Below, piece after piece: positions 5,115-7,882 of a DNA stretch of 9,417 bases. The DNA is taken from the IMG/VR virus record IMGVR_UViG_2700989509_000013, one strand, 5' to 3'. The DNA comes from a virus (lineage: Duplodnaviria; Heunggongvirae; Uroviricota; Caudoviricetes). Numbering within the stretch: position 1 is the stretch's first letter; every line of letters starts with the position of its first letter. The position numbers and the translations under genes are program-made. The notes under the pieces are model-generated. The model made no database searches. It had not been told where the DNA came from and worked only from the letters and a program-made list of their open reading frames with translations.

Positions 5115-5198
5115 TTACCCCCAGCGGCAAATCGAATACACCACCAGCGCCACCGCTATCGCAATTCCTACCGTTGTAAATGCTTCAGGCCAGGTCAT
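5115..5198 (-). CDS. 27-aa hydrophobic peptide (single predicted TM helix), translationally coupled to upstream gene
   Basis: ATG 5196-5198 overlaps the TGA of the 187-aa gene (ATGA); GAGGA lies 9 nt upstream. Translation MTWPEAFTTVGIAIAVALVVYSICRWG, stop TAA at 5115-5117. Not in ORF track. Confidence 0.4.
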   Translation of the reverse strand: MTWPEAFTTVGIAIAVALVVYSICRWG

Positions 5199-5758
5199 CG
5201 CAAAATATCCTCCGCGCTTATCAGTCCGTTTCGCTTCAGGTAGTCCATCGCCTTCTCCGGTAATTTGCAGTCCGGCTTAGCTTTTTTCAGTTGGCTGACC
5301 AGTCGCTTAACCCACATTGTTAATTCGCTAACCTGATTGCCGGATGCTGGGGGATTGTCGGCTTTACCCAGAATGGCAGCACAGCAGGCCTCTTTGAGTA
5401 CCCAATCAACAGCGTCTTTCCATGCTCCTGTTTCGACTGGAGGATTCTCACGCCGTACCTGTTCATAAAAGCGCACAGCTTTAACCAGTCCTTCAGGCAC
5501 TACCGGCACAGGTGGAGCGACGAATAGTGGTTTAGGTGATATCTCCGCACGTTTTGCGTATGCTTCAACTATATCAGGATTAAACAGGATTATGTTTTCG
5601 CCGCATTCCCACGCTATCGGTTCTGCTTCCAGCGATGCCAATGCAATTTTGAATAACTCACCCTCTACTCGTGCCATCCCTGAATTGGGATGGCATTTCG
5701 CAATCGCTATTTTTAATTTAGCTTCTTCGATTAATTGCTCTTTGGTTAATTCAGTCAT
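5195..5758 (-). CDS. Hypothetical protein, 187 aa, no recognised domain
   Basis: Intact ORF MTELTKEQLIEEAKLKIAIAKCHPNSG…AEDILR. Start ATG at 5756-5758 lies inside a 4-codon uORF (ATG 5763-5765, MKND*) and downstream of a hairpin; coding-like composition. Confidence 0.6.
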   Translation of the reverse strand: MTELTKEQLIEEAKLKIAIAKCHPNSGMARVEGELFKIALASLEAEPIAWECGENIILFNPDIVEAYAKRAEISPKPLFVAPPVPVVPEGLVKAVRFYEQVRRENPPVETGAWKDAVDWVLKEACCAAILGKADNPPASGNQVSELTMWVKRLVSQLKKAKPDCKLPEKAMDYLKRNGLISAEDILR

Positions 5759-5767
5759 TTTTCATTA

Positions 5768-5789
5768 CCGCCCTTTCAGGCGGTCTCCT
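5768..5789 (-). promoter_or_regulatory. Hairpin between Shine-Dalgarno and start codon of the 187-aa gene
   Basis: Minus strand reads AGGAGA (plus 5784-5789), then stem CCGCC/GGCGG (5768-5772 with 5779-5783) with 6-nt loop, then UA-AUG. Folded, the SD-to-AUG spacing drops from about 19 nt to about 3. Confidence 0.3.
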
Positions 5790-5853
5790 GATGTTCTGAG
5801 GGTGCAGAAATCCCTCCGGTTAAGGATTAAATTTTTAACAGTGCTAAATTTAA

Positions 5854-6210
5854 TTATTCAGTTCTTGATTTTGCCGCCCTGCGTATACGTGCTTTCGCGT
5901 TACGCTCAATCTGAATTAGCTTTTCTATATTTCTCCGCCTTTCCCGTTCCTCCTGGCGCAAGAGCCTTACATCATCTGCCAGTCTGGTTTCTCTTTTCGC
6001 CATAGAGAGCATCCAGTCAAATGGCTCCACAACTGCACCGCAGATTTTACAGCGGACCTGACGCACTTTTTCGTCAACCCGGACAGAAGCGTGATGGCAA
6101 TATGGTCTTTCCGATGGCTCATAAAGAAAATTAACCTGATTACGTGGGTCATCCTCTTTTACCGGAAATAAAACAATATTACTTAACTCATCTTCTGGTT
6201 TTATTTCCAT
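5854..6210 (-). CDS. Hypothetical protein, 118 aa, possible zinc-ribbon (C-HH…C-x2-C) with basic C-terminal tail
   Basis: ATG 6208-6210 with AGGAGAGG 6 nt upstream. Contains YCHHASVRVDEKVRQVRCKICG and an Arg/Lys/Glu-rich C-terminal third. Overlaps the upstream gene by 23 nt. Confidence 0.6.
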   Translation of the reverse strand: MEIKPEDELSNIVLFPVKEDDPRNQVNFLYEPSERPYCHHASVRVDEKVRQVRCKICGAVVEPFDWMLSMAKRETRLADDVRLLRQEERERRRNIEKLIQIERNAKARIRRAAKSRTE

Positions 6211-6688
6211 GGTCCTCTCCTTTGATGCGAATGCCAGCGATAATTGAAGCCTGATAGCTAATTTTACTCACAGCCCCCCCCTGATAATTTCCCTGATAAA
6301 ACGCCAGCACTCGCTGCATAACTTCGCTCTTCCGGCACTCGCGACAGATTATATTCAGGCGCCTGTCGTAGCGACGTATTTCTCCGTCTGGTAATGACCA
6401 TATAAGGTCAGGATCAACCACAACCGGTTTCTTCAGCTTTGCCCTCGATAATTTTTTGCGGGCGTTTTGCCAGTCCTTACGCGCCTGTTCAGACGGGAAT
6501 AATCCGTAGCCTGAATTGTAAACATCACCACTGGCGACCAGTTCTCTGGCGAGAGTGCTTATGTAATACCTTGATGCACCGGTTTTAGCCTCCAGAGCCC
6601 GTAACGTCTCGCGACCGCTCAGACGTACAAGTTCAATAACCTGCCCTTTAATTTTTTCTCGCTCTTCTTGTGTAAAAACTTTTGCCAC
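6188..6688 (-). CDS. Hypothetical protein, 166 aa, GTG start, possible N-terminal HTH; occupies the position of a helicase loader but has no Walker motif
   Basis: GTG 6686-6688 preceded by AGGAGG with 4-nt spacer. N-terminal RETLRALEAKTGASRYYISTLAREL is HTH-like. No GxxGxGK[ST]. Confidence 0.6.
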   Translation of the reverse strand: MAKVFTQEEREKIKGQVIELVRLSGRETLRALEAKTGASRYYISTLARELVASGDVYNSGYGLFPSEQARKDWQNARKKLSRAKLKKPVVVDPDLIWSLPDGEIRRYDRRLNIICRECRKSEVMQRVLAFYQGNYQGGAVSKISYQASIIAGIRIKGEDHGNKTRR

Positions 6689-6728
6689 AAGTCCTCCTGA
6701 AAATTACCTCGTGACCTGAAATAAACAC

Positions 6729-7811
6729 TTACCCCCTGAAGCCCGGTGGAATTTCGGTATCCGGTTCAGAAATATGATTCACACAACGCTGGTTGTTCGT
6801 GCCGCTTACCGGGAGCAACCAGGGGTTTTCAAAATTTCGGTCCGGTCCAAAAAACGTCGTCGCTCGCTGAACAAATTCCGTTCCAGTTTTCCCGGTAACC
6901 GCCAGATATCTTGCGTAACGCCTCACGCCATCCAGCATGGCCTCTGGTGGCACCCCCTCGCGTAATCTGGCCTTCCAGGCACTGAAAGCGGATTTCTTCG
7001 GGTTTGCCCCGGCACGCAACGGGTACTCCCGCCAGACCTGTTCGAACACATCCGGATAATCCACTCGTCCCACAGACTGCCCGGTGTTTTCCGGGACTAC
7101 CCGATCGGCTTCCCACTGAATGGCGGAATCGGCTTCAGGCTGCTGCAGTTGGAGTGATTGCTCCGGCCTTGCGGTCATCACCTGCTGCACAGCGCCCGAA
7201 TCGGCTTTCAGCGCATACGCTGAATCGGCTTCCGGTGTCGTGCCTGCTGGCTGACCAGGATTGACGGTCTGAACATCCCCTGCCTGGTTCGTGGCGTTTT
7301 TTACGCCATGGACCATAGTGTTTTGATCTTCTTTATCTGTATCTTTATCTGTATCTTTATCTGTATCTTTATCTGTCGTGACTTGCCGTGACATGTGCGT
7401 GACATTTCGTGACGCGCCGTGACAATCGCCATTTTGTTCCCGCTTTCTTTCCCTCTCTCGCTGCGCCCTCTTGCGCTCTGCAGGAGATTTTGCGGTTTGC
7501 GAAATATTGCCGTTGTCCTCTTTCAGCACCTGGCGTTTTTCCCATCCAGTGATTAAATCACCATCAAGTACCCGCCCCTGCATCGTCTGCAAAATTGAAT
7601 CAATTACCTCTTCTGTCACGTCGAGCGCACTTGCCAAATCTTCTGTCGTGACATCAATGTGACCTCGCGTGACATTTCGTGACGCGCTCACCAGGAGGTG
7701 GATATACACTGCCATCACTGTTGCAATTGGCTGCCCTGACACCCTGGCAATTGTTCGCCACTTAGGGTCATTTGGCATGTCATGCCATAATCTGAGCCAG
7801 GCGTTGGCCAT
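6729..7811 (-). CDS. Phage replication initiator (lambda O-like replisome organiser) with iterons inside the coding sequence
   Basis: 360-aa ORF from ATG 7809-7811 (GAGGTGA just upstream; track start at 7817 is GTG). N-terminal MANAWLRLWHDMPNDPKWRTIA…, central DKDT x4 linker, C-terminal …FEQVWREYPLRAGANPKKSAFSAWKARL… resembling remembered phage replication-protein C-terminal domains. Sits directly downstream of the cro-like/YdaT-like genes. Confidence 0.7.
   Translation of the reverse strand: MANAWLRLWHDMPNDPKWRTIARVSGQPIATVMAVYIHLLVSASRNVTRGHIDVTTEDLASALDVTEEVIDSILQTMQGRVLDGDLITGWEKRQVLKEDNGNISQTAKSPAERKRAQRERERKREQNGDCHGASRNVTHMSRQVTTDKDTDKDTDKDTDKEDQNTMVHGVKNATNQAGDVQTVNPGQPAGTTPEADSAYALKADSGAVQQVMTARPEQSLQLQQPEADSAIQWEADRVVPENTGQSVGRVDYPDVFEQVWREYPLRAGANPKKSAFSAWKARLREGVPPEAMLDGVRRYARYLAVTGKTGTEFVQRATTFFGPDRNFENPWLLPVSGTNNQRCVNHISEPDTEIPPGFRG
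7329..7376. repeat. Tandem 12-bp repeat, about 4 copies (CTTTATCTGTAT; 6-bp periodicity TATCTK), AT-rich
   Basis: Read directly at 7331-7376; encodes the DKDTDKDTDKDTDK linker on the minus strand. Immediately adjacent to iteron array A. Confidence 0.9.
7375..7425. repeat. Iteron array A: five direct CGTGAC repeats at about 10.5-bp spacing (probable origin of replication)
   Basis: CGTGAC begins at 7377, 7387, 7398, 7408 and 7418 (spacings 10, 11, 10, 10), in phase with the DNA helix and flanked by the AT-rich tandem repeat. Confidence 0.7.
7645..7687. repeat. Iteron array B: four GTGAC repeats at about 10-bp spacing
   Basis: GTGAC begins at 7648, 7659, 7668 and 7678. A 21-bp stretch GCGTGACATTTCGTGACGCGC (7667-7687) is repeated exactly at 7397-7417 in array A. 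Confidence 0.6.
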
Positions 7812-7882
7812 ACTCACCTCTTTTGATACCGAATCTTTTTACTCACAAATTGCCGGAAGTGATCCGGTATGAATATTGCGAG

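What the first reader, a model, noticed from the sequence alone, without database searches (positions are those of the whole stretch)
7645..7687. Second iteron cluster 270 bp away sharing an exact 21-bp block with the first
Four more GTGAC repeats lie in the region encoding residues about 40-57 of the same initiator. The 21-bp stretch GCGTGACATTTCGTGACGCGC is identical at 7397-7417 and 7667-7687, and the protein carries SRNVT twice as a result. Two arrays separated by roughly 26 helical turns could loop via bound initiator, or one could act as an autoregulatory site; lambda has only one array.
Basis: seen in the sequence. Interest (0 to 1): 0.45.

Follow-up and report, generated by a model that had tools for sequence, protein, structure and literature searches.

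The report
Second initiator-site array inside replication gene
A prophage replication-initiator gene carries, besides its internal origin, a second cluster of the same short binding-site repeats written into the codons of its own DNA-binding domain; relatives from many bacteria keep this cluster and change its sequence in step with the origin repeats, so it is a selected part of the origin, not a coincidence.

Summary
Four GTGAC cores lie 10-11 bp apart at 7648-7683. The 21-bp block at 7667-7687 repeats 7397-7417 exactly.

The gene (6729-7811, minus strand) encodes a prophage replication initiator. Array A (7378-7423) adjoins an AT-rich tandem repeat and forms a lambda-like origin inside the gene. 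Array B lies in codons 43-55, which encode a helix end and a surface loop of the winged-helix DNA-binding domain.

- **Conservation:** about 45 of 58 homologous genes from many genera carry both arrays.
- **Co-variation:** the core differs between lineages (GTCACG, GTAACG, GAACGC, GCAACG, GTGACG) but is the same in both arrays of each gene.
- **Selection on DNA:** synonymous sites inside the array B cores are frozen (normalised codon entropy 0.15 against 0.83 elsewhere, p = 5e-7). Spacer codons vary freely.
- **Extra site:** one inverted copy at 7615-7619 is frozen in the same way.

Array B is therefore very probably a real second set of initiator binding sites. No binding has been shown. Its role is unresolved: an auxiliary arm of a two-part origin that loops to array A (my preference), or negative control. 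The exact 21-bp identity is peculiar to this lineage.

This is a new variant of a known kind, of moderate interest.

The parts
6729..7811 (-). Replication initiator gene (360 aa from the ATG at 7811). The N-terminal part is a winged-helix DNA-binding domain distantly similar to replisome organizers; the C-terminal part is DnaD/DnaT-like.
   Evidence: ORF and translation. PHROG 3729 'replication initiation protein', E = 7e-252, with weaker replisome-organizer and DnaD-like PHROGs. Pfam Phage_rep_org_N scores only E = 0.13 and TIGR01714 E = 0.016, both below their cut-offs. NCBI names relatives 'phage replisome organizer'.
7647..7683 (-). Array B: four direct copies of the core (GTCAC(G) on the coding strand) at gene nt 129, 139, 149 and 160. 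On the window + strand GTGAC starts at 7679, 7669, 7659 and 7648. The array overlies codons 43-55.
   Evidence: Synonymous sites frozen in 24 homologues. Present at the same gene position in most homologues, with a class-specific core.
7615..7619 (-). Single inverted copy of the core (GTGAC on the coding strand, gene nt 193-197, codons D64-V65-T66). It lies 33 bp, start to start, beyond the last direct copy of array B.
   Evidence: V65 is GTG in 20 of 20 homologues that have Val there. It is the only fully frozen codon outside array B among 66 conserved codons. The inverted copy sits at gene nt 192 in most GTCAC-class loci.
7667..7687 (.). 21-bp block identical to 7397-7417. It covers two iteron units with their spacer.
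   Evidence: It is the longest block shared by arrays A and B among 25 GTCAC-class loci; typical values are 8-11 bp.
7378..7423 (-). Array A: five direct copies of the same core at 10-11 bp spacing. These are the origin-proximal iterons, lying in the linker that follows the N-terminal domain.
   Evidence: Conserved in homologues and followed there by an AT-rich stretch.
7330..7376 (.). AT-rich tandem repeat, 12 bp x 3.9 (TCTTTATCTGTA), encoding TDKD repeats. Presumed DNA-unwinding element next to array A.
   Evidence: GC falls to 0.28 at 7320-7379, whereas the array B region has GC 0.52-0.55.
7285..7315 (.). Inverted repeat with a 13-bp stem, just beyond the AT-rich tract. A possible counterpart of the palindrome that flanks the lambda origin.
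   Evidence: Its conservation in relatives was not examined.

Best explanation
Array B is a genuine second cluster of binding sites for the phage's own initiator. It is overlaid on codons 43-55 of the initiator gene, with an inverted site at codon 65. Those codons encode the end of a helix and a surface loop of the winged-helix domain, a segment that tolerates the amino acids the DNA motif dictates.

I put this part at about 0.85. It rests on co-variation and on selection acting on the DNA, not on a binding assay.

The proposed mechanism is inferred. Initiator molecules fill the four same-face sites of array B. They bridge to initiator bound on array A, 229 bp downstream, by looping out the DNA between the arrays. 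This raises occupancy and stabilises the oligomeric complex that opens the AT-rich tract beside array A. Array B would then be the auxiliary arm of a two-part origin and not an origin in itself.

I put this positive, cis-acting role at about 0.45-0.5, ahead of negative control.
For: 1. Clustering far beyond chance.
2. When the repeat hexamer is defined from the origin zone alone, in 38 loci it occurs 110 times in gene nt 101-205, against 1, 3 and 1 times in three control zones of the same size.
3. Co-variation is clean: the class assigned from array A predicts the hexamer in array B. Mean copies on the diagonal are 3.48, 2.50, 2.62, 2.5 and 3.0, and nearly all off-diagonal values are close to 0; the single GTGACG locus is the exception.
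4. Selection acts on the DNA. Codons V47 GTC, T48 ACG, G50 GGT, H51 CAC and V54 GTC are invariant in 23 of 23 sequences, while the spacer codon R49 and conserved residues elsewhere use all synonyms. Normalised codon entropy is 0.15 against 0.83, Mann-Whitney p = 5e-7. The GAACGC class gives the same result independently.
5. The 10-11 bp period puts successive cores in different reading frames. In some relatives arrays A and B also lie in different frames, so the repeat is a DNA feature, not a protein repeat.
6. The AlphaFold model places array B at the end of helix 29-45 and in loop 46-55, a segment rich in insertions and deletions.
7. Only array A has an adjacent AT-rich tract.
8. The second array has been rebuilt in different ways. 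It sits at codons 64-78 in L139. It is enlarged by loop insertions in L090 and L122. In L130 it shares a 31-nt block with array A.
9. The complete genome of phage Evi holds no third array.
10. The arrays go with the N-terminal domain: a Stx phage initiator with the same C-terminal half but an unrelated N-terminal domain showed no repeated core hexamer of this kind.
Against: No binding or replication data exist for this initiator family. About 13 of 58 homologues lack array B, so it is not essential everywhere.

The gap between the arrays ranges from 117 to 319 bp. Helical-phase coherence is weak (R = 0.35 at 10.5 bp per turn) and is confounded by shared ancestry, so nothing positive points to a fixed loop geometry.

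Loci without array B do not carry more copies in array A (p = 0.36). No IHF consensus lies between the arrays.

Nothing computed here separates a positive from a negative role.
Confidence: 0.5

Rival explanations
1. Array B is a negative control element. Initiator bound inside its own coding sequence could block transcription of its gene and the genes downstream (autoregulation). It could also titrate initiator, or pair with array A on the same or another copy ('handcuffing') to limit initiation, as the extra iteron arrays of plasmids P1, F and RK2 do.
For: It uses the same evidence that array B is an initiator site. Array B lies 129 nt into the gene and upstream of array A in the direction of transcription. 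An inverted copy is also under selection, and in iteron plasmids inverted half-sites are the operators bound by Rep dimers (own knowledge). Up to four copies of this module occur in one E. coli genome, a setting where control in trans could matter.
Against: No core copies occur in the promoter region upstream of the operon. A phage that replicates lytically gains little from limiting its copy number, and in a lysogen the repressor already shuts off the initiator (inference). Strong conservation across many genera, and repeated rebuilding of the array, are easier to explain for a site that helps replication.
Confidence: 0.3
2. Array B is a barrier. Tightly bound initiator stalls the helicase or the fork on one side of the origin. 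This would make replication unidirectional or trigger the switch from circle-to-circle to rolling-circle replication, as proposed for gp38 bound at oriR of phage SPP1.
For: The SPP1 precedent for initiator-bound repeats acting as a fork obstacle (PMC6316719) and for unidirectional replication from oriL (PMC5737612). All direct copies of arrays A and B share one orientation and lie on the same side of the AT-rich tract.
Against: Array A already lies between the AT-rich tract and array B and would meet that fork first. No data bear on fork direction. SPP1 oriR lies about 13 kb from oriL and has its own AT-rich element, unlike array B (PMC6316719).
Confidence: 0.08
3. Array B acts in the messenger RNA: repeated GUCACG would bind a protein or pace translation. 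The frozen synonymous sites would then reflect selection on the RNA and not on double-stranded DNA.
For: Frozen synonymous sites alone cannot tell selection on DNA from selection on RNA.
Against: The 10-11 bp period matches the helical repeat of duplex DNA. The motif always equals that of the origin array next to the AT-rich tract. An inverted copy is also conserved, and it would read differently in RNA. The motif is relocated or expanded without regard to reading frame.
Confidence: 0.03
4. There is no function. The similarity would be chance, codon usage, an internal duplication of a protein segment (ASRNVT twice), or a recent gene-conversion tract.
For: The exact 21-bp block is specific to this lineage. 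Copying from array A to array B does seem to happen now and then, as in L130.
Against: No shuffle reproduces the pattern. Array B is conserved with frozen synonymous sites from E. coli to Pseudomonas, Bordetella, Janthinobacterium and Ralstonia phages. The repeat unit is not a multiple of three bases. The sequences flanking the two arrays are unrelated.
Confidence: 0.02

Closest known systems
Bacteriophage lambda origin inside gene O (and Stx phages 933W and P27)
   Same: The origin lies inside the initiator gene, in the linker after the N-terminal DNA-binding domain. Repeated initiator sites are followed by an AT-rich tract (PMC7466680). Here a palindrome-like hairpin follows as well. The operon layout is the same: repressor, Cro-like, CII-like, then initiator.
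   Different: Lambda has one array of four 19-bp iterons (six in Stx phages), each an inverted repeat. Here the cores are 5-6 bp direct repeats every 10-11 bp, arranged in two separate arrays, one of them inside the coding sequence of the DNA-binding domain. The protein has no detectable similarity to lambda O.
Replisome organizers of Gram-positive phages: SPP1 G38P (oriL in gene 38, plus oriR); TP901-1 ORF13; Tuc2009 Rep2009
   Same: The initiator binds direct repeats inside its own gene, next to an AT-rich unwinding element (PMC5737612, PMC6316719, PMC8965321). SPP1 also has a second region bound by the initiator. There is weak full-length similarity to the Phage_rep_org_N profile.
   Different: The second SPP1 site (oriR) is a complete origin-like unit with its own AT-rich element, about 13 kb from oriL and in non-coding DNA. 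A repeat scan of SPP1 gene 38 found periodic repeats only in mid-gene and none in the N-terminal coding part. Sequence similarity to G38P is not significant.
Satellite phage P4 ori plus crr (own knowledge, not checked in the library)
   Same: Two separate clusters of the same short initiator-binding repeat. Only one cluster is the site of opening. The other is needed in cis and is joined to it by protein-mediated looping.
   Different: P4 crr lies kilobases away and outside the initiator's DNA-binding-domain codons. The P4 alpha protein is a primase-helicase unrelated to this initiator. A cis requirement for array B is untested.
Auxiliary iteron arrays of plasmids (P1 incA, F incC, the RK2 upstream iterons) (own knowledge)
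   Same: A second array of the same iterons near the rep gene and outside the minimal origin. It would evolve together with the initiator's specificity.
   Different: Those arrays are non-coding and act negatively through handcuffing or titration in plasmids with controlled copy number. Here the array is embedded in codons of a phage initiator of a different protein family, and the sign of its effect is unknown.

Membership tests
Lambda-type origin (ori-lambda architecture and O protein) | Initiator-binding repeats inside the initiator gene with an adjacent AT-rich tract | tested here: met
   Array A at 7378-7423 adjoins the AT-rich tandem repeat at 7330-7376, where GC falls to 0.28.
Lambda-type origin (ori-lambda architecture and O protein) | Iterons of about 19 bp with internal dyad symmetry, in a single array | tested here: not met
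   Direct 5-6 bp cores every 10-11 bp, in two arrays.
Lambda-type origin (ori-lambda architecture and O protein) | Initiator homologous to lambda O | tested here: not met
   No lambda O family was reported by Pfam, even at E <= 10. The 'DNA replication protein O' labels in some phage records are the depositors' names only.
Phage replisome organizer (Pfam PF09681 / TIGR01714 N-terminal domain) | Score above the curated cut-off of the family profile | tested here: inconclusive
   PF09681 scores 12.7 bits against a cut-off of 23.3 (E = 0.13). TIGR01714 scores 15.4 against 49.8 (E = 0.016). Both alignments run the full length of the profile. The PHROG replisome-organizer families hit at E = 7.6e-8 and 2.3e-6. 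Foldseek finds only generic winged-helix regulators, all with E > 0.4.
Phage replisome organizer (Pfam PF09681 / TIGR01714 N-terminal domain) | Binds direct repeats located within its own gene | not testable with these tools
   The repeats are present and co-vary with the gene lineage. Binding needs an experiment.
Two-part origins with a cis-acting auxiliary site cluster (P4 ori/crr type) | The same initiator-site motif in two separated clusters, only one next to the unwinding element | tested here: met
Two-part origins with a cis-acting auxiliary site cluster (P4 ori/crr type) | The auxiliary cluster is required in cis, and the initiator loops the DNA between the clusters | not testable with these tools
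   Only indirect data: the gap between arrays varies from 117 to 319 bp and phase coherence is weak.
Plasmid copy-control iteron arrays (incA / incC type) | Extra iteron array outside the minimal origin | tested here: met
   Array B lies 229 bp from array A and has no AT-rich tract of its own.
Plasmid copy-control iteron arrays (incA / incC type) | The array lowers copy number or initiation frequency | not testable with these tools
   No functional data.
SPP1-type second origin (oriR) | The second binding region has its own AT-rich unwinding element | tested here: not met
   GC is 0.52-0.55 around array B and there is no AT-rich neighbour.

The most novel reading that the evidence does not exclude
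The binding site and part of the protein that reads it may be the same stretch of DNA. Within the folded N-terminal domain, the only segments that differ consistently between core classes are the loop encoded by array B (residues 45-56) and residues 65-67, at the start of the presumed recognition helix, which the inverted copy encodes. If these residues help to determine specificity, one copying event from the origin array into the gene would change site and reader together. That would be a self-referential route to new initiator-origin pairs and would explain how five or more classes arose with matching arrays. The plainer reading is that these residues differ only because the DNA motif forces them. 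That reading is more likely and is not excluded.
Probability: 0.07. Interest if true: 0.9.

Novelty: new variant of a known kind. Interest (0 to 1): 0.55.

Why it matters
This replication module is uncharacterised yet very common. It occurs in 1817 of 5426 complete E. coli genomes, up to four times in one genome. Relatives occur in phages and prophages of Pseudomonas, Aeromonas, Bordetella and Ralstonia and in other bacterial genomes, including Serratia.

- **Origin mapping:** a conserved second iteron array written into the initiator's own DNA-binding-domain codons changes how origins of this family should be mapped and cloned. A fragment holding array A alone may not be the full origin.
- **Dual coding:** it is a clean natural case in which a protein-binding DNA signal dictates the amino acids of a protein loop.
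- **Co-evolution:** it provides five or more matched initiator-site classes for studying how replication specificity evolves, and how prophages that share a cell avoid or exploit cross-talk.
- **Genome recoding:** synonymous changes in this loop are not neutral.

Tried and rejected
- **Viral-contig scan:** it returned only copies identical in the first 126 residues, so it gave no diversity. Their nucleotide variation had too little power: one variant falls in an array B core, against about 1.6 expected.
- **First genome-contig scan:** it failed because the alignment had no conserved stretch. It was redone with a narrower alignment.
- **Helical phasing of array B relative to array A:** R is 0.35-0.52 depending on the assumed pitch. 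This cannot be separated from shared ancestry, so it is inconclusive.
- **Concerted evolution of spacers:** the longest block shared within a locus averages 11.2 bp, against 10.2 bp between loci. There is no general homogenisation; only occasional copying is seen (L130).
- **Compensation for a missing array B by more array A copies:** not supported (p = 0.36). Only L125, with 7 copies, stands out.
- **Host-factor and promoter sites:** no IHF consensus anywhere in the window and no DnaA box inside the gene. The scan found no promoter at array B.
- **Solved structures:** a PDB sequence search and a Foldseek search gave no significant relative, only generic winged-helix folds.
- **Literature:** searches found no description of a second array within the gene for this family. 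The primary TP901-1 and r1t papers are not held. The search for P4 crr papers gave nothing usable, so statements about P4 rest on my own knowledge.
- **Protein-level duplication:** rejected, because the period is 10-11 bp and the reading frames differ.

Full report
**Observation.** The sequence is as described. GCGTGACATTTCGTGACGCGC occurs at 7397-7417 and again at 7667-7687. On the + strand, GTGAC starts at 7648, 7659, 7669 and 7679 (array B) and at 7378, 7388, 7399, 7409 and 7419 (array A). Together these are nine of the 14 + strand copies in the window. A three-copy periodic pattern matches only at these two places, and 200 shuffles gave no match.

**The gene and its setting.** Both arrays lie inside a minus-strand ORF, 6729-7811, of 360 residues.
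- The protein matches PHROG 3729, 'replication initiation protein', at E = 7e-252. Weaker matches to replisome-organizer families cover the N-terminal part, and DnaD-like and primosomal families cover the C-terminal part.
- The curated profiles for the replisome-organizer N-terminal domain align over their full length but score below their cut-offs.
- The neighbours form a lambdoid early operon. A CI-like repressor lies on the opposite strand. A Cro/YdaS-like gene and a CII/YdaT-like gene precede the initiator, and a DUF977/Ren-like gene follows it.
- Near-identical genes occur in induced E. coli phages such as Evi and Tritos and in 1817 of 5426 complete E. coli genomes.

**Anatomy of the origin.** In coding orientation the core is GTCAC(G).
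- Array B has four direct copies at gene nt 129, 139, 149 and 160, in codons 43-55.
- Array A has five copies at nt 389-434.
- Array A is followed at once by a 12-bp tandem repeat (7330-7376). GC falls to 0.28 there.
- A hairpin with a 13-bp stem follows at 7285-7315.
- Array A plus the AT-rich tract therefore has the layout of a lambda-type origin inside the initiator gene (PMC7466680).
- Array B has no AT-rich neighbour; GC around it is 0.52-0.55.

**Relatives.** A translated search of phage records and a scan of one genome per bacterial species gave about 60 diverse homologous loci. They come from phages of Aeromonas, Pseudomonas and Ralstonia and of cyanobacteria. They also come from genomes of Shigella, Rahnella, Serratia, Bordetella, Acidovorax, Janthinobacterium and Sphingomonas, and from metagenome-assembled genomes assigned to Acidobacteria and other groups.
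- In most loci, the commonest hexamer in the first 600 nt of the gene falls into two clusters, one near nt 129-170 and one near nt 340-450.
- I defined the repeat from the origin zone alone (nt 300-520). In 38 loci it then occurs 110 times in nt 101-205, against 1, 3 and 1 times in three control zones of equal size. Thirty-four of the 38 loci have two or more copies there.
- The core differs between lineages: GTCACG (25 loci), GAACGC (16), GTAACG (6), GCAACG (2) and GTGACG (1).
- The class read from array A predicts the hexamer found in array B. Mean copies on the diagonal are 2.5-3.5 and nearly all off-diagonal values are close to zero; the single GTGACG locus also has two GAACGC copies.

**Selection acts on the DNA.** I built a codon alignment of 24 GTCACG-class genes with 44-96% protein identity.
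- The codons that spell the cores never vary: V47 GTC 23/23, T48 ACG 23/23, G50 GGT 23/23, H51 CAC 23/23 and V54 GTC 23/23. T55 is ACG in 22 of 23.
- The spacer codon R49 uses four synonyms. Conserved residues elsewhere use all their synonyms freely.
- Normalised codon entropy is 0.15 in codons 43-55 and 0.83 in 66 other conserved codons (p = 5e-7).
- The only other fully frozen codon is V65 (GTG, 20/20). It creates an inverted copy of the core at gene nt 193-197, which is window 7615-7619.
- The GAACGC class shows the same pattern independently. N46 AAC, E49 GAA and R50 CGC are frozen in array B, as are N137, E140 and R141 in array A, and everything else varies.
- The period is 10-11 bp, so successive cores fall in different reading frames. 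In some relatives the two arrays also lie in different frames. This is a DNA repeat and not a protein repeat.

**Why the protein tolerates it.** An AlphaFold model of residues 1-137 (mean pLDDT 79) has the layout of a winged-helix domain. Its elements are helix 29-45, a loop at 46-55 with one bridge residue, helices 56-63 and 67-77, and then a beta wing. Array B encodes the end of the first of these helices and the loop. In alignments this is the segment richest in insertions and deletions. The invariant Arg-Gly of the loop is kept, and the iterons are fitted around it.

**Variation among relatives.**
- About 13 of 58 loci lack array B. Their loop reads roughly AS..ERG......ED(L/I)ASAL. Array B is therefore accessory.
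- In L139 the second array sits at codons 64-78 and not in the loop.
- In L090 and L122, insertions in the loop carry extra copies. L122 has three inverted copies.
- In L130, arrays B and A share a 31-nt block with two synonymous mismatches, which points to copying from one array into the other.
- The 21-bp identity in this window is the longest block shared by the two arrays among 25 GTCAC-class loci. Values of 8-11 bp are typical, and blocks shared within a locus are barely longer than those shared between loci. The exact block is therefore a trait of this lineage, and the conserved feature is the phased cores.

**What was not found.**
- There is no third array in the 40-kb genome of phage Evi.
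- There is no IHF consensus in the window and no DnaA box inside the gene. The scan found no promoter at array B.
- The distance between arrays is not fixed; the gap ranges from 117 to 319 bp. Helical phasing is weak and confounded by ancestry.
- Array A is not enlarged where array B is missing.

**Mechanism.** What is shown is that array B is kept by selection on the DNA sequence and always matches the origin iterons. What follows is inference.
- The same initiator most likely binds both arrays. I put this at about 0.85.
- My preferred role, at about 0.45-0.5, is an auxiliary arm of a two-part origin. Initiator bound along one face of array B would bridge to initiator on array A by looping, and so help to build the complex that opens the AT-rich tract.
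- The reasons are as follows. A lytic replicon gains from efficient firing and not from restraint. The array is conserved and has been rebuilt repeatedly in very different hosts. Only array A carries an unwinding element.
- Negative control through a transcription roadblock, titration or handcuffing is the main rival, at about 0.3.
- A fork barrier, as proposed for gp38 at SPP1 oriR (PMC6316719), is a minor rival.
- An RNA-level role, or no function at all, is unlikely.

**Comparison with known systems.**
- The element works like the iteron origins inside lambda gene O, SPP1 gene 38 and the TP901-1 and Tuc2009 organizer genes (PMC7466680, PMC5737612, PMC8965321).
- With its second cluster it also resembles P4 ori/crr and the extra iteron arrays of plasmids P1, F and RK2 (own knowledge).
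- It is not a lambda O homologue, and its iterons differ from lambda's in form.
- Membership of the replisome-organizer family is inconclusive by the curated cut-offs.
- Unlike SPP1 oriR, array B has no unwinding element. SPP1 gene 38 itself shows no array in its N-terminal coding part.

**Novelty.** I found no description of a second array within the coding sequence of the DNA-binding domain. The library lacks most subscription journals, so this is not proof of absence.

**Verdict.** This is a new variant of a known kind, of moderate interest (0.55). The most novel reading still open concerns the residues encoded by the iterons. These are the only class-specific parts of the folded domain. 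They might help to set specificity, which would couple the site and its reader in one stretch of DNA. I put that at about 0.07.

Noticed in passing
window 7330-7376: The AT-rich unwinding element is a perfect 12-bp tandem repeat (3.9 copies) that encodes TDKD repeats. E. coli alleles stop aligning column for column from about gene nt 455, within this repeat, which suggests that the copy number varies. Many database proteins of this family are 'partial' at 150-220 residues, possibly because assemblies break near this repeat.
   Followed up: partly
window 7285-7315: An inverted repeat with a 13-bp stem lies just beyond the AT-rich tract, in the position of the palindrome that flanks the lambda origin. 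Its conservation in relatives was not checked.
   Followed up: no
window 7399-7426 (+ strand): A promoter-like match (GTGACA, 16-nt spacer, GACAAT; 9 of 12) lies antisense to the gene inside array A. It arises because the iteron GTGACA resembles a -35 hexamer. It could be a chance match or an antisense start at the origin.
   Followed up: no
window 7104-7231: ATCGGCTT occurs four times, at 7104, 7128, 7200 and 7224; no shuffle reached four. The spacings of 24, 72 and 24 bp are all multiples of three, so each copy is in frame and encodes (E/K)ADS. Unlike the iterons, this looks like a peptide repeat in the linker of the C-terminal half. The Stx phage 75/02 protein has PEADS twice.
   Followed up: partly
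window 6729-7207 (C-terminal half of the gene) and L146: The C-terminal 160 residues are about 82% identical in DNA to the initiator of Stx phages such as Shigella phage 75/02. That initiator has an unrelated N-terminal domain with no repeated core hexamer of this kind and is followed by a DnaC-like gene. The last 24 residues resemble the C-terminus of DnaT. In this window the initiator is followed by a DUF977/Ren-like gene, and the Pfam and PHROG scans of the next three downstream ORFs (5195-6688) found no helicase or helicase-loader gene.
   Followed up: partly
window 7300-7817, compared with the E. coli genomes: The N-terminal domain with both arrays is present in 1817 of 5426 complete E. 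coli genomes, in up to four places per genome. Prophages sharing a cell would then share initiator specificity, which raises the question of cross-activation or competition.
   Followed up: no
L139 gene nt 190-235; L122 nt 150-225; L130 nt 145-180 and 430-465: Three unusual forms of the second array: moved into the codons of the helix-turn-helix (L139); a loop insertion with three inverted copies (L122); and a 31-nt block shared with array A that has only two synonymous differences (L130).
   Followed up: partly
L008 (Pseudomonas phage PACT201) 1400-2600: The homologous initiator gene reads through only by switching frames several times. It is either a pseudogene or carries sequencing errors, and the record has no annotation there.
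   Followed up: no
window 6709-6720: A lone copy of the core (TCGTGACC) lies between the initiator's stop codon and the next gene. It is a single site and probably chance.
   Followed up: no
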